Of a stretch of 64,000 nucleotides of DNA, positions 8,607 through 60,469 are shown piece after piece. A program made the translations under genes and the position numbers. The DNA comes from Octopus vulgaris (taxonomy: Eukaryota). The notes below the pieces were generated by a model. That model was not told the DNA's origin. It did not search any database and saw only the letters and a program-made list of their open reading frames with translations. The stretch spans positions 7,378,001 through 7,442,000 of the forward strand of contig OX597832.1 in NCBI GenBank assembly GCA_951406725.2. Reading direction: 5' to 3'. Each line of letters opens with the position of its first letter. Positions within the stretch are counted from its first letter, which is position 1.

Positions 8607-8904
8607 CGAGAAGCATGTGTGTGTGTGTGTTGTAAATATCGCTATTTACGTAAGATTCGAAGTGTGGGAAAGGAAATTATATCGATAATACTGTATGTCA
8701 TTTAGCAATGAACAATCATCATAACCACGAAACCGAATGACATCATTAACGTAATTATGGGCGTCGTCATCGTCATCGTCGTCGACGTCGTCGTCATCAT
8801 CATCACCATCTTAGTCATCCTTCTCTAATTAATTGGCTCCTTCTAATCATTGCCACTATGAACATCAATACGACTATGACTACAACACGGTACAACCAAC
8901 CGCC

Positions 8905-9985
<1,081 letters not shown>

Positions 9986-10089
9986 CCACAACTACTGCCA
10001 CCCTTGCCTTCAATGTTTTTTTTTTATTTCTGTCTTATTCTGCGTCATCTGTTGCGGTTGTTGTTTCTTGTTGCTGCTGCTGTTGATTG

Positions 10090-10324
10090 GCGATGATGAT
10101 GATGATGATGATGATACCGATGATAATCCTGCTCTTGTTGCAGAAGACGACTACGTTGGTGATGATGATGGTGGTGATAATGATGATGATGGTGATGATG
10201 ATGGTGGTGATGATGATGATGATTGATGATGATGATGATGATGATTATGATGATGATGATGATGATGATGGTGGTGGTGATGATGATGATGGTGGTGGTA
10301 ATGATGATGTTGATGATGATGATG

Positions 10325-10355
<31 letters not shown>

Positions 10356-10415
10356 TGATGATGGTGAGGATGATGGTGATGATGACGATGATGATGATGT
10401 TGATGATGATGATGT

Positions 10416-10450
<35 letters not shown>

Positions 10451-10591
10451 TTGATGATGATGATGATGATTGTGGTAATGACGATGATGATGATGATGAT
10501 GATGATGGTGATGATAGTGATGAAGGGGATGATGATGAATGTGATGATGATGGTGATGATGGTGATGATGATGATGATGATGGTGATGATG

Positions 10592-10638
<47 letters not shown>

Positions 10639-10695
10639 GTGACGGAGACGATGACGATGACGATGATAATGATAATGACGATGATGATGATGATC
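10090..10695. repeat. (GAT)n microsatellite, opposite orientation to the preceding (ATC)n
   Basis: Directly visible. Confidence 0.95.
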
Positions 10696-13125: not shown

Positions 13126-13358
13126 TCTTTCTTTACTACCCACAAGGGGCTAAACACAGAGGGGACAAACAAGTACAGACAAACGAATTAAGTCGATTAA
13201 ATCGACCCCAGTGCGTAACTGGTACTTATTTAATCGACCCCGAAAGGATGAAAGGCAAAGTCGACCTCGGTGGAATTTGAACTCAGAACGTAACGGCAGA
13301 CGAAATACTGCTAAGCATTTCGCCCGGTGCGCTAACGATTCTGCCAGCTCGCCGCCTT
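13126..13358 (-). mobile_element. SINE family A, full length, Tx1-type tail, 16-bp TSD
   Basis: A box tggcagaatcgtt, B box gagttcaaattcc, central gcctttcatcctttcggggtcga domain; TSD tgttatagtctatatt at 13110-13125 and 13359-13374. Confidence 0.9.
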
Positions 13359-15009: not shown

Positions 15010-15742
15010 TCGCCACCACCATCACCACCACCACCACCACCACCAACAACAACAACATCAAGACAAAAGCCACCACCGTCATGTCACCATCACCACCATC
15101 ACAATTTCACTATCACACCACTACCACCACAACTTTCACTTTACTACGTTCACCATCACCACCGTCACTATCACCACCGCAACAACAATAGCAAGACACA
15201 AACATCATCACCATCGCCATCATCACAGCTTCAAAATCACACCACTGTTACCACCACCACCACCACCACCACTGTTGCTACAACTTTAACACTACTACGT
15301 TTACCCACTTCCCCCACACCGACACCACCAACGCCAACACCAACCCCACACCGACACCACCACCACCACCACCACCACCACCACCACCACCACCACCACC
15401 ACCACCACCACCACCACCACCACCACCACCACCACCACTACCATCACTACCACCACCACCACCACCACAACCATCGCTGCCGCCGCCATTCCCGAAACTA
15501 ACTCAATTTCTCTATCGCCAGTATGTCCCTACATCCATAAAAACCACGGGTATCACGTTCACCGTTGCAGTTAGTTCCTCCATCCCCATCTCCATCTCCA
15601 TCTTCATCTCCATCACTATCACCATCATCACCATCGCCACCGCCACCAGCACCAGCACCATCATCATCATCACCATCACCATCGCCACCAGCACCAGCAC
15701 CATCATCATCATCATCATCATCATCACCACCATCACCATCAC

Positions 15743-15774
<32 letters not shown>

Positions 15775-15795
15775 CCATCATCGTCATCGTCATCG

Positions 15796-15846
<51 letters not shown>

Positions 15847-15919
15847 CCATCACCATTACCATCACCATCACCACCACCATCACCATCACCATCACCACCA
15901 CCATCACCATCACCATCAC

Positions 15920-15951
<32 letters not shown>

Positions 15952-15979
15952 CCACCATCACCATCACCAACACCATCAC

Positions 15980-16046
<67 letters not shown>

Positions 16047-16132
16047 GCCATCACCATTCCAACCTCATTGCCGCCTCCACCACCACAACCACTATCACCC
16101 ACCCACTCACCATTGCTACTACTACTGCTACT
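15010..16132. repeat. (CAC)n/(CAT)n compound trinucleotide region
   Basis: Directly visible. Confidence 0.9.
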
Positions 16133-18780: not shown

Positions 18781-18954
18781 TATTTCTTTATTACCCACAG
18801 GGGGCTAAACACAGAGGGGACAAACAAGGACAGACAAACGGATTAAGTCGATTATATCGACCCCAGTGCATAACTGGTACTTATTTAATCGACCCCGAAA
18901 GGATGAAAGACAAAATCGACCTCGGCGGAATTTGAACTCAGAACGTAGCGGCAG
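18781..18954 (-). mobile_element. SINE family A, 5'-truncated, Tx1-type tail
   Basis: Body and tail match 13126-13358. Confidence 0.85.
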
Positions 18955-19320
18955 AAAAAGGTTGTCATTATAGTACTCGGAGTTTCGAGTGCCGGAGTGA
19001 AGAGCTACGATACATTCCCGTCGGCTATTAATGGCAACAGACGCTACGAAAAACCGTTAAATGTAAGGGTTTTTCGTAGTGCCTTTTGCCATTTTTCAAG
19101 ATCTTCCGGAGCCACTTGGATGATAGCTGTTATGCTCTGCCCGAGCCAATTTTGATGGGCAGAGCGTGTCACTTGTAGGATGTTAATTTTGTCCTCCCTG
19201 TTAAATAACAGGGCGGTCATCACCCCCACGGCTTCAATTTCCGGTGGTACTTCTGTCACCTTAACACGGGACGTGCGCCGCCCCGTATAGGTCGGCAGAA
19301 GCACCACTTCATTTGTTTTT
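18955..19320 (-). pseudogene. Probable Tx1/L1 ORF1 fragment
   Basis: ORF 19044-19307 VLLPTYTGRRTSRVKVTEVPPEI resembles the region before the zinc knuckle of Tx1-type ORF1; GC-rich relative to flanks. Confidence 0.45.
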
Positions 19321-19658: not shown

Positions 19659-20139
19659 CTATAGTTTTCAACCCATTTTTAAGTATGGACCTCTTTGATT
19701 ATTATTTTATTCTGGTGTCCCACACGTAGCCATTCAACATTTAAAACCTAGTTTTATAGATACTTCTTTAAAAAAATTCCTATTTTGTTTTCTACGCATT
19801 AACTTGTGTAGGTTGAGTTATGTAAAATATTTGAGAAAGAAACCAACCTGTTTCTTATTTCTATACTGCCCACAAGGGGCTGCACACAGAGGGGACAAAC
19901 AAGGACAGACAAACAGATTAAGTCGATTATAATGACCTCAGTGCGTAACTGGTACTTATTTAATCGACCCCGAAAGGATGAAAGGCAAAGTCGACCTGCA
20001 ATACAAACCAATACATACATCTACTGCAAATGTTTTTCAGGGACCCTTAAAATACTATTGTGGATCCCCCAATTTACTATTTCGTTTCAAGCACGCCCCC
20101 ACCATCAAATCTAATATGGACCCCAGTTGAGAACAACTG
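19659..20139. mobile_element. hAT (Charlie/MER5-like) MITE interrupted by a SINE A fragment
   Basis: Ends ctatagttttcaacc ... gttgagaacaactg resemble CAGTGGTTCTCAAC TIRs; degenerate 8-bp TSD acgcagag/gcgtaaag. Confidence 0.55.
19850..19998 (-). mobile_element. SINE family A 3' fragment, Tx1-type tail
   Basis: Tail reads tctgtgtgcagccccttgtgggcagtatagaaataagaaa on the minus strand. Confidence 0.85.
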
Positions 20140-21359: not shown

Positions 21360-21855
21360 TACTCTAGGCAAAAGGCTCAACATTTTTTGGGAGGGGGCTA
21401 GTCGATTAGATCGTCCTCAGTACGCAACTGGTACTTAATTTATCGATCTCGAAAAGATGTAAGACAAAGTCGACCTCGGCGGAAATTGAAGTCAAGACGT
21501 AAAGACAGGAGAAATACCTATTTCTTTACTACCCACAAGGGGCTAAACACAGAGAGGACAAACAAGGATAGACAAACGGATTAAGTCGTTAATTTATCGA
21601 CCCCGAAAGGATGAAAGGCAAAGTCAACCTCGGCGGAATTTGAAGTCAGGACGTAAAGACAGGAGAAATACCTATTTCTTTACTACCCACAAGTGGCTAA
21701 ACACAGAAAGGACAAACAAGGATAGACAAACGGATTAAGTCGTTAATTTATCGACCCCGAAAGGATGAAAGGAAAAGTCGACCTTGGCGGAATTTGAAGT
21801 CAGGACGTAAAGACAGGAGAAATACCGCTAAACATTTCGCCTGGCGTGCTAACGT
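21360..21855 (-). mobile_element. Tandem array of SINE A units (two internally deleted Tx1-tail units plus one tail-2 unit)
   Basis: Unit of about 150 bp repeated, junction aaagaaata|ggtatttc in SINE sense. Confidence 0.85.
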
Positions 21856-23451: not shown

Positions 23452-24230
23452 GAGGCAGCGAGCGGGCGGAAACGTTAGCACGCCGGGCGAAATGCTTAGC
23501 GGTATTTTGTCTGCCGTTACGTTGTGAGTTCAAATTCCGCCGCGGTCGACTTTAATTTTCATCCTTTCGGGGTCGATAAATTAAGTACCAGTTACGCACT
23601 GGGGTCGATGTAATCGACTTAATACCTATGTCTGTCCTTGTTTGTCCCTTCTATGTTTAGCCCCTTGTGGGTAATAAAGAAATGGGTATTTCGTCTGCTG
23701 TTACGTTCTGAGTTCAAATTCCGCAGAGGTCGACTTTGCCTTTCATCCTTTCGGGGTCAATAAATTAAGTACCAGTTACGCACTGGGGTCGATATAATCG
23801 ACTTAATCCGTTTGTCTGTCCTTGTTTATCCCTTCTGTGTTTAGCCCCTTCTGGGTAGTAAAGAAATAGGTATTTCGTCTGCAGTTACATTCTGAGTTCA
23901 AATTCCGCCGAGGTCGACTTTGCCTTATATCATTTCAGGGTCGATAAATTAAGTACCAGTTTTGCACTAGGGTCGATGTAATCGACTTCATCTCTTTGTC
24001 TGTCCTTGTTTGTCCCCTGTATGTTTAGCCCCTTGTGGGCAATAAAGAAATAAGAATCGTTAGCACGCCGGGCGAAATGCTTAGCGGTATTTCGCAAGTC
24101 GCTATATTCTGAGTTCAAATTCCACCGAGGTCGACTTTGCCTTTCATCCTTTCGGGGTCGATAAATTGAGTACCAGTTGCGTACTTGGATCGATATAATC
24201 GACTGGCCCTTCCCCCAAAGTTCGGCCCTA
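23452..24230 (+). mobile_element. Tandem array of four SINE A units
   Basis: Three units with Tx1-type tail followed by one tail-2 unit; later units lack all or part of the head. Confidence 0.9.
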
Positions 24231-28130: not shown

Positions 28131-28757
28131 CTTTTAATCTGCATGTTTGTTATAATCTCTTGTCGAGACGCACCCAGCGTCCTAGGGCGAGAGAAGGATA
28201 AGAAATGTTACAGTATGACTGAAAGCTTGGGGAGAGGAAGTGGCAGGGGCAGTAGCAAAATATTTTCATGTGGTACAACACAGACATTTAAATTGACAGG
28301 GTTTTTCAAACGACGTGGGCAGTACTTGTTAGCACAATCTCTTGGATTTCTCTGAGACATGGTTCTCCTGGGATCTTATCTAGATGTTTTTGACATCCCT
28401 TTCTTATCATACCTAGGACACTCACAATAACAGGAACAGTTCTCGCTTTAAGATGCCACATCTTTTGTATTTCAATTTTCAGGTCCTTATATTTACTTAA
28501 TTTGTCAAATTCCTTTACAGATATATTTTTATCAGTGGGAACAATTACATGTATTAGTCTATAAGTATTTTTTTCCCCGACTTTAATGCCTATGTCTGGT
28601 CGATTAGTCTGGATCATTCTGTTGGTGTTGACGGAAAGTCCCAGAGGATAGTGACATTTTTTCTGTCAACAATTGGCTCAGGATGGTGTTCATAGCAGTA
28701 AGCAGGAGTGTTGATTTTGTAGTATTTGCATATTTTCCAATGTAAATACAATTCTAC
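28131..28757 (-). mobile_element. 5'-truncated R4/Dong-clade non-LTR retrotransposon (RLE domain plus 3' UTR) in a (TAA)n array
   Basis: LHWKICKYY..YEHHPEP..VTILWDF, NRPDI, DKLSKYKDLKIEIQKMWHLK..VPVIVSVLG, REIQEIVLTSTAHV; (TTA)n at 28057-28123 and 28889-28925. Confidence 0.85.
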
Positions 28758-28927: not shown

Positions 28928-29210
28928 GGTTGTAATCGACTGAATCCCTTTGTCTGTACTTGTTTGCCCCCTGTATGTTTAACCCCTTGTGGGCAATAAA
29001 GAAATATGAATCGTTAGCACGCCGGGCTAAATGCTTACAAGTATTTCGTCTGTCTTTATGTTCTGAGTTCAAATTTCGCCGTGGTTGATTTGGCCTTTCA
29101 TCCTTTCGTGGTCGATAAAAATAAGTACCAGTTGAGTATTGGGGTCAATGTAATTGACTAGCTCCTCTCCCTAATTTCAGGCATTGTGTCTTTAGTAGAA
29201 AGGATTATTA
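28928..29210 (+). mobile_element. SINE A Tx1-tail fragment joined to a tail-2 SINE A at the head
   Basis: Junction aataaagaaatat|gaatcgttagcacgccggg. Confidence 0.8.
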
Positions 29211-30946
29211 TCATAGACATACATGCATAATAGTAAAATAAATGTCCCTCTATCGATTTCTGTGATGAGTTTCCATTTGTACGTTCAGGCGAACCACTTC
29301 CTCAGTAAATTAGCACAAGAGTGGATGAGTATTCCGCAGACACGTGTATCCTTAACGTAATTCTCGGGTAGAATCTATGTAACAAAATGTGTTGCAATGC
29401 TGCTCGATCTTTGAATCTCTAGTTTGATCCATCTGGTGAGCTTCGAAACAATTTCTGATAATCCAATTTCACTTACAAGTCGTTGATCAATCGGAGTCAA
29501 TGGTAAAAAAATACTTGCCTAAGAGAAAATGCCATACGGTGAGATTGAACCCGGGACCTCGTGATTGCCAAGCAAATTTCTTAACCATTGCGCCTTGCTG
29601 AGTCCATATTTGCAAACATCCATGCATACATATGTTTGCTCTTGCCGCATATACTTCAGTGTTGCATACGAGAAATCTTTCACTCTCTCTGTTTTCTCTC
29701 CTGCCTTCCATCTGTTTATTTCTAATCTACTATTGTTGTTGTTTTGTTTTTTTTTTTATTTGAAACAGGTTTGTAAAAAATAAATAGATAAATAAATTCG
29801 TAAAAAATAAATACAAAACTTAAACTACAACAGCAAAAAACAAAAACAAAAGAAAATTTCTAAAATCTTAAATTGGAAATAGCTCTACTTAATCAACATC
29901 AACGATGTGTAAGCGAGGTGATGAACCAAATATATGCTTAAACGTTGCTGTTATTGTATTCTTTCTCTCTCTCTCTCTGAGCACATTTATATGTATGTAT
30001 GTGTGTGCATATGCGTGTATGTGTGTGTGTATGTATGTGTGTGTGTGTGTGTGTGTGTGTCTGTGTGCGTGTGTGTTGGTATATTTGTATATATTTGATA
30101 CATTGTGCCGTTCATTGTTTTATTTAATCTCCCCACCACAGACGAAAACAAAATTAAAATTTGTGAGTTAAAATATCAAATCAATGAAAGACAACTTAAC
30201 TGGGGATGAAGACAATGAGTGTGTGTGTGTGTGTATGTGTGTATGTGTGTATGTGTGTGTGTGTGTGTCTGTGTGTATGAGAGCGTGTTCGTGTTTGTGA
30301 ATTATGTAAGATGATTGAGGAGCTGTTGAAATGTTATTGAAATTTCTAAATGAATTGTTTACAAGGGGAATTGATGCTAAAGGCGGCCGAGAGTTTGATA
30401 GAGCAAACGACAGACACGCACACATACACAGACAAACACACACAAACACAGAGAGAGAAAAGAACTAGAGAGGGGAGAGAGAGAGAAAGAGAGCGGAGAG
30501 AAAGGGGAGAAAGGGGAGAGAAAGATGGAGAGATACTTTTGATAGTCGTTCCACGGAATTACAAAAATGCTCCGCAATGTCATAAACACATGGCCAAACG
30601 ACAATTGATTTTGCATTCCTCTCAGCTCCACTTCCTTGACTTCTCCCTCCTAAGGCCCTTTCTTCCAATTTTCTCCGTCTTCTCAATCATTTCTCTCCCT
30701 TTCTTTCTCTCTCACACACACAAAACAAAACAAAAAAAAAACCACAGCAAAATCCCAATTGCACCGCCAACGATTAAACAAAGAAAACGTCCATTATTAT
30801 GACGATCTATAATACGCAATTTTTACAGCACCAAAAGTGTCATTAAAAGAGTATGTTTAACAAAACCAGCGTTTGTAATGGATAGCAACGAGTTTGATAT
30901 GCGTGTATGTGTGTATGTGTGTATATGTGTCTGCATGCGTTTGTGG

Positions 30947-30971
30947 TATCTATCTATCTATCTGTTTGTGG

Positions 30972-31037
<66 letters not shown>

Positions 31038-31070
31038 CCTACCTACCTACCTACCTACCTACCTACCTAC

Positions 31071-31145
<75 letters not shown>

Positions 31146-31185
31146 CCTACCTACCTACCTACCTATCTATCTATCTATCTATCTA

Positions 31186-31244
<59 letters not shown>

Positions 31245-31269
31245 CCTACCTACCTACCTACCTACCTAC

Positions 31270-31323
<54 letters not shown>

Positions 31324-31387
31324 ATCTATCTACCTACCTACCTACCTACCTACCTACCTACCTACCTACCTATCTATTTATCTATCT
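30947..31387. repeat. (TCTA)n/(CCTA)n array, 5' flank of the Tx1 insertion
   Basis: Directly visible; continues as (TCTA)n at 33489-33576. Confidence 0.97.
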
Positions 31388-33103
31388 AACGAACCTGGCA
31401 TGGGTGGGGCGCTGATCAATTTGGATCAATCGAAAGCTTTCGATAGGGTGGACCATCGATACTTGGAGGCGGTCCTCGGAGCGGCTGGCTTCGGTCCCGT
31501 CTTCCGCGGCTGGATAGCCGCTTTGTACAGAGGCATCCGTTCGGTAATTCGCGTGAATGGACATCTATCGAGACCCTTCGACATCGCACGTTCGGTCCGT
31601 CAGGGATGCCCCCTCTCGTCGCTTCTATACGTATTGACTCTCGAGCCATTATTGCGGAAGCTGGCAACCTTGAGAGGTCTCCCGCGAGAATTGGGATGCG
31701 GGACGAGCGTGTCTGCATACGCGGACGACGTCACCGTCATAGTGTCTAGCCACGAGCACATCGAGCAGGTCGGCGAGACACTGAAAAACTACGAAGCGGT
31801 GACAGGAGCGAAAATCAACCGGGAAAAGTCAGTGGGCTTGCGACTAGGCACCTGGAGAAGCAAGCCCATGTCGTCCACCAGCGCCTCCGTCGTGGGACGC
31901 TGGACCGACGGCCCGGTTGAGTTGCTCGGGGTCTGGTTTGGTCCGGACCTCCAAGTGGAGAAGAACTGGAACGAGATAACGAGTAGGGTGGTCACTCTCG
32001 CCCGGCAATGGGCCGAGAGGAAACTGTCCCTAAAAGGTCGGGCGGAGGTGGCGAACACGTACATCGCGTCCGTCATCTATTACCGCCTGACCGTCGTACC
32101 TTGTCCCGACCCTACCATCACCAAACTACAACGCATTCTCTTTCGCTTCTTGTGGAAAGGATGCGTCCCGATGGTCAGGCGATCCATTTGCTGTCAACAC
32201 CCGTTAAAAGGAGGGCTGGGCATGCCGTGGTTGATGATGCGCAGACACGCGCTGAGACTGCGACATCTCTGGCTCTATGTAGACGACGGTGAACAGGTGT
32301 GGTCGCCGTTTGTGAGGCACGCTTTCCCGCAGCTCGTCTCCATGACCGAACTGCAGTCGTGGATCAAAAAGAGGCCGAGGAAGGGCGAATGGCACCGCGA
32401 GTGTCGCGTTGCTCTCAAGCAACTCTGCCGTCCTGGGTCGACCTTTAGTGACTTCAACACAACCAAAGCATTCTATAGGGGTTTAGTGGAGGGGAGGTAC
32501 GACGACGAGCTCGGGGCGAACCTGGACGTCGACGAGGAGTACCTGACCCGCCTGTTCAGGACGACTTTCGGGCCAGGGCCCATGTACAACTTCCAGAGAT
32601 CCCTGGCCTGGCAGTGCTACCGAGAAGCGCTACCCGTTCGGGATAAGCTCTACAGACACGGCTCGAGAAACACGGGGCCGACCTGCCCGAGATGCGGTCA
32701 GAGCGACGAAACCGTTCTGCATGCACTCGTGCAGTGTCCAACAATTTCCGACCTGTGGGCTTATGTCGAACAACTGCTGCCACGTGTGGGACGAGTCGGT
32801 TTATCAGCTGAGTCTATCGTCAATATTGTCACGCCTCCTTCCTTCAAACGGGAAGGAAGAGCTATTTTCATCATCCTTGTGGCTATGGCGAAAGAATGTA
32901 TCTGGTGGACGCGTCTGAAAGGATTGGAGACAAACACTTTCCTCTCTGGTCAATCTCTCATCAACTTCTTCAAGTACCACTTGAAAAGGAAAGTGAGAGT
33001 AGAGAGGCAAGTTTTGTCTAGCGAATGTTTTAAAAAAAGATGGGTGAATGTAGCAAGAATGGCACGTATGAATGACGAAGCCACCTTGAGCATGGTCCTA
33101 TGA
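31388..33103 (+). CDS. Partial ORF2 (reverse transcriptase plus C-terminal zinc-binding domain) of a Tx1-like element; lacks the endonuclease and a native start
   Basis: [58 protein letters not shown]; no stops or frameshifts. Confidence 0.9.
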
Positions 33104-33488
33104 ACCCAGAAATTGAAATCAGAGAGTTGTTTATTCGCAAAAAAAAAAAAAAAAAAAAAAAGAAATATAACATGTGATTTCATTGACCGAGGTTACCGTG
33201 GTCTTTTCCGTAGGCTTTTCTTTGCACGGGTAAACCTCACCTGTCCTCCCCTTTACACTTCATATTGACATTTCTGTGATAACGATCCCTATTGATCAAT
33301 TTTTTTTTCCTCTCCCCTTTTTTTTAACCCCCCATTTTTTTGTCCTCTTTCTCTCCTTTTACGATCCCTTTTGATCGAAGCTCCCCCTTCCTTTTTTTTT
33401 TTTTTTTTTTTTTAAACCTTCAAAAGAAAAGCTCTACCTTGTAATTTGTTCTATCTGTGTGCAGCCCTGTGTGGCTAATAAAGAAACA
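31388..33488 (+). mobile_element. 5'-truncated Tx1-clade (L1 group) non-LTR retrotransposon
   Basis: RT and zf-RVT ORF, about 385 bp 3' UTR with A/T tracts ending gctaataaagaaa, flanked on both sides by (TCTA)n. Confidence 0.92.
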
Positions 33489-33576
<88 letters not shown>

Positions 33577-34317: not shown

Positions 34318-34592
34318 GACTGGGGACGAATTAATTTCAGCTGGCGTGTTGGGAATTAAGCCAAACGGCAGAGGGAAGAATATCGATGTGGCAGTGACCG
34401 TGGTCAAATGCAAAAAGGGCTAGCAGTCGGCCAACGGTCACGTGAGAAGAGAAGTACACATTTCACTAAATTTTGTACGACTTCTTCAACACTCTCTCTC
34501 ACAATTCTTTGCTTTTCTTACTTTGCACTTCACTATGTCCCTGTCTCTCATTTTTTTTCGCCACTCCTTGATTCTTCCGTCTATCTACTGCT

Positions 34593-34633
<41 letters not shown>

Positions 34634-34804
34634 TCCCACTCCTTTATTCCTTCTTCTTTTTCTCTCTCTTCTCTTCTCACGTGACCGTTGGCCGACTGCT
34701 AGCCCTTTTTGCGTTTGACCACAGTCACTGCCACATCGATATTCTTCCCTCTGCCGTAAAGCTTAATTCCCAATAAGCCAGCTATATTAAATTCGTCCCC
34801 AGTC
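34318..34804. repeat. Inverted repeat pair of about 137 bp (34318-34454 / 34668-34804), probably from a Penelope-like element
   Basis: Arms are reverse complements with scattered mismatches. Confidence 0.85.
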
Positions 34805-60050: not shown

Positions 60051-60469
60051 AACGTAAAACAAAATTCTTTGCAGTACTTATGGTCCTTTACATTGTGTGT
60101 TCAAATCCCACCAAGGTAGACTTGGCTGCTTTCCATTCCGCAATCAATAAAATAAAATACCGGACGCCGGGCGAAATGCTTAGCAATATTTCGTCTGCCG
60201 TTACGTTCTGAGTTCAAATCAATGTATTTGATTTAATCCCTTTGTCTGTCCTTGTTTGTCCCCTTGTGGGCAATAAAGAAATAAAATTAAAATACCGGTG
60301 AAAATACTGGTGACGTCATTTTCGTTGATTATCCTTTCTTTTTGAGTTTTGTGGCTTTGTATCAATGTTAGAAACGAACATTGCACTATTGATTACTTAA
60401 CGTTCTGAGTTCAAATCCTGTCGAGGCCACCATCATGTTTTCTCGTTCTGGGTCGATAAAATATTTTCT

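What the first reader, a model, noticed from the sequence alone, without database searches (positions are those of the whole stretch)
30947..33576. Young Tx1 retrotransposon inserted inside a (TCTA)n/GATA microsatellite
Seen: the same tetranucleotide array lies on both sides of the element. The ORF is uninterrupted over 31388-33103 and CpG-rich against an AT-rich background, which suggests recent insertion. Known: the Tx1 families Kibi and Koshi target (TC)n and (TTC)n. Inference: this may be a GATA-repeat-specific Tx1 family, a target I do not recall being described, using an abundant safe-harbour repeat.
Basis: partly seen in the sequence, partly recalled or inferred. Interest (0 to 1): 0.7.

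Follow-up and report, generated by a model that had tools for sequence, protein, structure and literature searches.

The report
Tx1 retrotransposon inside a GATA repeat
A shortened, recently inserted copy of a very common jumping gene (a Tx1-type LINE, probably from an octopus) sits inside a TATC/GATA repeat; its family likely prefers this repeat as a landing site, but only this one insertion could be examined, so chance remains almost as likely.

Summary
Confirmed: a 2.1-kb, 5'-truncated LINE (31389-33488, +) with an open RT-to-zinc-finger frame lies between a compound (TATC/TACC)n array and a perfect (TATC)22 array, with no terminal poly(A). Trees place it in the Tx1 clade, in a cephalopod-like lineage that is moderately supported (91.6/79) as sister to a vertebrate lineage holding a (TC)n-flanked, Kibi-like element. 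The family is very abundant and split into subfamilies. Young age rests on the open frame; CpG adds little (o/e 1.07 vs 0.83). The key claim, GATA specificity, could not be tested: no genome was held and no second copy with flanks was obtained. For it: same array and Kibi-like strand on both sides; TATC arrays cover about 0.6-1.4% of the window. Against it: 15% of the window is microsatellite; the nearest relatives with flanks (43% identical) form head-to-tail arrays with 0 of 6 host junctions in a microsatellite; a SINE sharing the element's tail has 0 of 10 ends in TATC. Verdict: a new Tx1 family; (TATC)n preference about even odds and, if true, a new target for a known mechanism.

The parts
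30947..31388 (+). 5' flank: compound (TATC)n/(TACC)n microsatellite, 110.5 units, 95% matches; probably the pre-existing target array
   Evidence: TRF; block structure
31389..33488 (+). 5'-truncated Tx1-clade LINE, 2.1 kb; the 5' junction is uncertain by 2-3 bases of microhomology with the array
   Evidence: (family continues upstream of 31391)
31388..33103 (+). ORF2 remnant, 571 aa, open: C-terminal part of RT (with YADD) and C-terminal zinc finger; endonuclease and RT N-terminus are missing
   Evidence: nearest solved structure human LINE-1 ORF2p, E 1.5e-20
33104..33488 (+). Inferred 3' UTR, 385 bp, pyrimidine-rich, with an internal A23 (33139-33161) and T22 (33392-33413); ends 6 nt after AATAAA (33477-33482); no terminal poly(A)
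33437..33486 (+). Terminal 50 nt similar to the tail of an abundant SINE in the window (36 of 50 identical)
   Evidence: local score 40, 0 of 2000 shuffles reach it (max 28); alignment
33489..33576 (+). 3' flank: perfect (TATC)22
   Evidence: TRF

Best explanation
This is a young, 5'-truncated copy of an abundant Tx1-clade LINE that was inserted, likely by target-primed reverse transcription, into a pre-existing (TATC)n microsatellite that its family's endonuclease likely prefers. Shown: the LINE identity, the truncation, the open frame, the two arrays, the lack of a poly(A) tail, the high copy number and the subfamily structure. Inferred from known Tx1/L1 biology: an APE endonuclease (present in full-length relatives, missing here) nicked the purine-rich GATA strand; RT primed on the nick at the RNA 3' end just past AATAAA, stopped early, and joined the upstream array through 2-3 bases of microhomology; any target-site duplication (10 bp fits exactly, 14 bp with one mismatch) is hidden in the repeat. 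Inferred and untested: that the family or this subfamily lands in (TATC)n far above chance, as Kibi does in (TC)n.
For: Same unit on both sides; the left array is compound and is not preceded by an element 3' end, so it looks like pre-existing host DNA and not a tail. TATC arrays offer only 0.6-1.4% of insertion points. RT trees put the lineage next to a vertebrate clade that includes L011, an element flanked by (TC)n on both sides and also without poly(A): SH-aLRT 93 in the quick 82-row tree, 91.6/79 in the 34-row tree; grouping with the U2-inserted (Keno-like) elements is rejected, p-AU 0.005. The pyrimidine-rich strand lies on the element's sense strand, as in L011. Related targets (TC)n, (TTC)n, (TTCC)n, (TTTC)n are described for Tx1 families (PMC4494074, section read).
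Against: One insertion only. 15% of the window is microsatellite interior; with priors of 0.1-0.3 that I chose, a simple Bayes sum gives 0.31-0.63. The nearest relatives with flanks (43% aa identity, genome G001) sit in head-to-tail arrays with no microsatellite between units and 0 of 6 host junctions within 60 bp of one. A SINE that shares the terminal 50 nt has 0 of 10 3' ends followed by TATC, and one copy has a 16-bp duplication in non-repeat DNA. In the laid runs 0 of 24 listed loose ends (of 3138) are TATC-like, two upstream loose ends with low agreement (0.58, 0.61) look like mixed non-repeat flanks, and each of the 4 runs has a 21-29 kb contig laid on the element, which suggests some copies abut unique DNA (weak, see Tried and rejected). 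The tree support for kinship with the Kibi-like clade is moderate.
Confidence: 0.48

Rival explanations
1. Chance: an abundant Tx1 family with little or only weak AT-rich target preference happened to land in one of the many microsatellites of this genome.
For: Microsatellite interiors are 15% of the window. Summed depth of 0.3-2.4 million against 52-100 for single listed contigs in run X1 points to the order of 10^4 copies (rough, the tool warns that this is no copy number), so about a hundred copies would sit in TATC arrays by chance. Sister arrays (0 of 6 junctions) and the tail-sharing SINE (0 of 10 ends) are not in microsatellites.
Against: The chance for this particular class of array is about 1%; strand and unit resemble the targets of the neighbouring vertebrate lineage. 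Target choice differs between Tx1 families much closer than 43% identity is likely to track (PMC4494074: one crocodilian group has different targets), so the sister data bind this family only loosely.
Confidence: 0.38
2. Tail-guided landing: the element RNA ends in a few TATC units, which anneal to a nicked GATA strand (as for CR1/L2-type short-repeat tails); the pure right array is then partly the element's own tail and the preference comes from pairing, not from the endonuclease.
For: No poly(A); the right array is perfect while the left is degenerate; sister elements run 10-30 nt past AATAAA at 3 of 3 host 3' junctions, so this element's true end could lie within the TATC run.
Against: The tail-sharing SINE ends about 6 nt after the same signal without TATC, which matches an end at 33488. 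None of the 7 other exact TATC arrays in the window is preceded by this 3' end.
Confidence: 0.1
3. Composite locus: the LINE ends at the internal A23 (33139-33161) as a poly(A) tail, and 33162-33488 is a separate piece, so only the 5' junction touches TATC.
Against: No AATAAA precedes the A run on this strand; the distal part is pyrimidine-rich and ends in AATAAA like sister 3' UTRs; outside its last 42-50 nt it matches nothing else in the window.
Confidence: 0.04

Closest known systems
Kibi ((TC)n) and Koshi ((TTC)n) of teleosts, and the crocodilian Tx1 group on (TTCC)n/(TTTC)n (PMC4494074: passages and section 15 read; PMC3812793: passages read)
   Same: Tx1-clade RT; the same microsatellite on both sides; pyrimidine-rich strand on the sense strand and no poly(A), as seen in the Kibi-like locus L011; moderately supported sister lineage.
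   Different: Unit is TATC, not listed in the passages read; host is probably an octopod; only about 35% identity to L011 over the RT stretch; specificity is not shown for this family.
Keno (U2 snRNA-specific Tx1) (PMC4494074, PMC4640811: passages read)
   Same: Tx1 clade; 26-38% identity to U2-adjacent loci L003, L007, L019, L122.
   Different: No RNA gene in the window at Rfam gathering level; grouping with these elements is rejected.
L1-Tx1 families annotated in Octopus vulgaris (80 families, 56.3 Mb; 13 recently active families, 421 insertions; PMC13282606: passages and supplement row read)
   Same: Same class, probably the same host group; this family may be one of them.
Other microsatellite-targeting LINEs: Waldo (ACAY), Mino (AC), Dong (TAA), Togen (TG), Tx1-1_ACar (telomeric repeat) (PMC3812793, PMC4640811, PMC10088271: passages read)
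   Same: Use of a simple repeat as a harmless landing site.
   Different: Other repeat units; apart from Tx1-1_ACar, other clades (clade names for Waldo, Mino and Dong recalled).

Membership tests
Tx1 clade (L1 group) of non-LTR retrotransposons | RT phylogeny groups with known Tx1 elements | tested here: met
   Falls within the group of U2-inserted, (TC)n-flanked and TX1-labelled vertebrate proteins; TX1-labelled P0097 and P0111 score 187 and 182 bits against 76 bits for human L1 ORF2p (other database). No mammalian L1 row was in the tree.
Tx1 clade (L1 group) of non-LTR retrotransposons | ORF2 = APE endonuclease + RT + C-terminal zinc finger | tested here: inconclusive
   RT and zinc finger present; the endonuclease lies in the truncated part. 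It is present in full-length relatives at 43-45% identity, not seen in the family itself.
Tx1 clade (L1 group) of non-LTR retrotransposons | ORF1 with CCHC zinc knuckle (feature recalled) | tested here: inconclusive
   Missing from this copy; zf-CCHC found in 3 of 4 sister ORF1s scanned, 2 above the Pfam cut-off.
Target-specific Tx1 family (criterion of PMC4494074) | One sequence type in more than 20% of the flanks of the family's copies | not testable with these tools
   No genome held; no second copy with flanks; laid contigs listed 24 of 3138 loose ends.
Kibi/Koshi lineage | Inside the vertebrate clade that holds (TC)n/(TTC)n-inserted elements | tested here: not met
   A separate clade (100/100), sister to it at 91.6/79.
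Kibi/Koshi lineage | Target (TC)n or (TTC)n | tested here: not met
   Flanks are (TATC)n.
Keno | Insertion in U2 snRNA genes | tested here: not met
   No Rfam match in the window; p-AU 0.005 against the grouping.

The most novel reading that the evidence does not exclude
An abundant octopod Tx1 family has an endonuclease tuned to (GATA)n, a microsatellite target not found in the papers searched; it belongs to a cephalopod-wide, poly(A)-less lineage that has switched targets since splitting from relatives that build long head-to-tail arrays, and whose 3' end also mobilises a major octopus SINE.
Probability: 0.4. Interest if true: 0.48.

Novelty: new member of a known kind. Interest (0 to 1): 0.3.

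Why it matters
Microsatellite-targeting Tx1 elements are known, so the mechanism would not be new. If the preference holds, it adds a tetranucleotide target in a new phylum and gives a close natural comparison (TC, TTC, TTTC, TATC) for how APE endonucleases change specificity, which a review calls not well understood (PMC3812793, passage). With thousands of copies it would also shape where repeats gather in a microsatellite-rich genome and would confound GATA markers there. If it is chance, this is an ordinary truncated LINE. The shared SINE tail points to this Tx1 lineage as the likely partner of a major octopus SINE, a side result that can be tested in any assembly.

Tried and rejected
Genome-wide flank census: impossible, no genome held. 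Other copies with flanks: the exact 3'-end pattern found 0 stretches in metagenome contigs; a junction pattern found 0 in viral contigs; a shorter pattern found 2, both chance 19-24 nt matches with no protein similarity; protein scans gave only relatives of at most 55% in the best segment in metagenomes (best 80 of 200 kept, scan incomplete), at most 44% in genome contigs and none in viral contigs; no match in plasmids or phages. Laying contigs of 4 of the 20 holder runs on the ORF did not settle the flank question: only 24 of 3138 loose ends are listed, most look like diverged subfamilies, junctions seen in a single contig rank low, and the tool drops human-like records without notice, which may include GATA-containing contigs. 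Microsatellite-encoded peptides (such as YLSI repeats) fused to RT: 0 of 430 fetched proteins; uninformative, since gene calls rarely run through flanks. CpG as an age marker: rejected as weak (the sister ORF2 also has o/e 1.01). A stem-loop at the 3' end or in the UTR: not better than shuffles (z 0.77, -0.23, -0.32), although the sister end folds better (z -2.3). The 766-aa stop-to-stop ORF as a gene: rejected, its first part is translated microsatellite. Homology of the element's 3' UTR to sister 3' ends: no convincing alignment, scores 15-20. Earlier scan notes on this sequence or genome: none.

Full report
Observation. The + strand holds a compound microsatellite at 30947-31388 (TATC x110.5, 95% matches, with four TACC blocks), then 2.1 kb of non-repeat DNA, then a perfect (TATC)22 at 33489-33576. 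The frame 31388-33103 is open for 571 codons and carries the C-terminal part of a reverse transcriptase (RVT_1, E 2.9e-20) and a C-terminal zinc finger (zf-RVT, E 7.2e-8). After the stop come 385 pyrimidine-rich bases that end 6 nt after an AATAAA, directly at the TATC array, with no terminal poly(A).

What it is. The best named protein relatives are from Argonauta (63%), Octopus bimaculoides (54% over a quarter of the query) and Sepia (35%), so the host is probably an octopod (inference). Full-length relatives of about 1150 aa at 40-45% identity have endonuclease, RT and zinc finger; sister loci have an ORF1, with a CCHC knuckle in 3 of 4 scanned. The nearest solved structure is human LINE-1 ORF2p (E 1.5e-20). 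In an 82-row quick tree and a 34-row tree with bootstraps (rows picked by me from the hits; no mammalian L1), the element lies in an octopod-like group (99.9/100) within a cephalopod-like clade (100/100). That clade is sister, with moderate support (93; 91.6/79), to a vertebrate clade that holds TX1-labelled proteins and locus L011, an element flanked by (TC)n on both sides. Joining it with the U2-inserted, Keno-like loci is rejected (p-AU 0.005). It is a Tx1-clade LINE, but not Kibi, Koshi or Keno.

Family and age. Twenty runs of 12 studies and 8 coded organisms hold 60-88% of its sampled words. In the 4 runs laid, 8,409-39,557 contigs fit the ORF; depth rises towards the 3' end, as expected for 5'-truncated copies; and listed loose ends in three runs continue the RT sequence upstream of 31391, which fixes the truncation point and shows 2-3 bases of microhomology with the array. 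Summed depth suggests the order of 10^4 copies, a rough figure that the tool warns against reading as a copy number. Of the 40 best-supported variable places (of 320), 26 are third codon positions and 1 a second position (p 4e-5): the window copy differs from the majority mainly as a subfamily under selection, not by decay. The open frame argues for under about 1-2% decay. CpG is a weak argument: o/e 1.07 against 0.83 in the rest of the window, reached by 2 of 34 other bins.

The target claim. The direct test, a census of flanks, could not be run: no genome is held and no collection gave a second copy with flanks. For a preference: the same unit lies on both sides; the left array is degenerate and not preceded by an element end, so it looks like older host DNA; TATC arrays offer 0.6-1.4% of insertion points; the pyrimidine-rich strand is on the sense strand as in L011; and the neighbouring vertebrate lineage is known for (TC)n, (TTC)n, (TTCC)n and (TTTC)n (PMC4494074). 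Against: 15% of the window is microsatellite interior and the unit was picked after the fact; with priors of 0.1-0.3 this gives 0.31-0.63. The nearest relatives with DNA context (43% identity; animal contigs inside the bacterial-labelled genome G001) form head-to-tail arrays without microsatellites between units; of 14 stretches fetched, six gave host junctions (three 5', three 3') and 0 of 6 have a microsatellite within 60 bp. One further 3' junction ran into another family's head and one 5' end was ambiguous; both were left out, and the rest ran to contig ends. A SINE in the window shares the element's last 50 nt (36 of 50; 0 of 2000 shuffles reach the score), yet 0 of its 10 3' ends are followed by TATC, 6 of 10 by another SINE head, and one copy has a 16-bp duplication in non-repeat DNA. 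In the laid runs 0 of 24 listed loose ends (of 3138) are TATC-like, and every run has a 21-29 kb contig on the element; both points are weak, because the list is cut and human-like records are dropped. I put a real preference at about even odds.

Mechanism. Most likely a full-length family member supplied an APE endonuclease that nicked the GATA strand; RT copied the RNA from its end just past AATAAA, stopped inside the RT region and joined the array by microhomology. A duplication of 10 bp (14 with one mismatch) is compatible with the junctions but cannot be seen in a repeat. These steps follow from known L1/Tx1 biology and were not tested. Rivals: chance landing (0.38), a TATC tail that pairs with the target (0.10), and a composite 3' part (0.04).

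Literature. Read as passages or named sections: PMC4494074 (passages, section 15; 'gata' and 'tatc' 0 times in the main text; figure labels and supplements not visible), PMC3812793 (list of microsatellite-targeting LINEs, no TATC), PMC4640811, PMC10088271, PMC13282606 (passages and supplement search), PMC4758252, PMC4824008, PMC5381506, PMC10294476. Searches for a GATA target returned 0 papers; searches showed none in their listings. Kojima and Fujiwara 2004 and Repbase Reports were not seen, and Repbase is where such a target would most likely be recorded, so absence from print is not established.

Verdict. Real and correctly located; a new family of a known kind. If the preference is confirmed it is a new target variant of a known strategy, of moderate interest to specialists; if not, an ordinary young LINE fragment.

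Noticed in passing
window 23456-23683, 13128-13352 (-), 18782-18959 (-), 19857-19996 (-), 28931-29005, 60164-60282: An abundant SINE (tRNA-like head by eye, not tested) shares its last 50 nt with the Tx1 element, which points to this lineage as its likely partner; the copy at 13128-13352 has a 16-bp target duplication.
   Followed up: partly
window 21400-21855 (-), 23456-24204, 28931-29159: The SINE forms head-to-tail arrays in which later units start at the same two head positions (about 14 and 46): 6 of 10 SINE 3' ends. Could be self-targeting, template jumping or tandem amplification.
   Followed up: partly
window 60918 (-), 21400 (-) and six more: A second SINE type with the same body has a different tail that resembles the 3' end of the sister Tx1 in L104; only 2 of 8 copies beat all 500 shuffles against L104.
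   Followed up: partly
G001 (L081-L121, L124-L137): A genome labelled as a bacterial MAG holds animal contigs with head-to-tail arrays of full-length Tx1-type elements: 63 matches to a 3' UTR motif on 15 contigs, up to 13 in a row, units of 6.4-6.9 kb, neighbours 99.0-99.9% identical in 3 arrays checked, several families, no poly(A), array ends in non-repeat host DNA. The host is probably a cephalopod (L081 groups with a Sepia protein). Worth its own look, and a contamination warning for that record.
   Followed up: partly
L011, L012; L003, L007, L019, L122: Metagenome and MAG contigs hold a Kibi-like element in (TC)n and Keno-like elements upstream of U2 genes, some beside U1 or 5S genes.
   Followed up: partly
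window 30878-33103: An ATG upstream of the left array is in frame with the ORF through the stop-free repeat; a gene caller could report a false 740-aa fusion protein.
   Followed up: no
window 28306-28665 (-): A 119-aa frame that looks by eye like the C-terminal end of another non-LTR retrotransposon next to a (CTT)44/(TTA)13 array; no Pfam match.
   Followed up: no
window 8904-10694 and 15323-16057: Very long (CAT)n/(GAT)n arrays (360 and 201 units, opposite strands) and (CAC/CAT)n arrays.
   Followed up: no
window 34318-34454 and 34668-34804: A 137-bp inverted repeat at 92% identity just downstream of the element.
   Followed up: no
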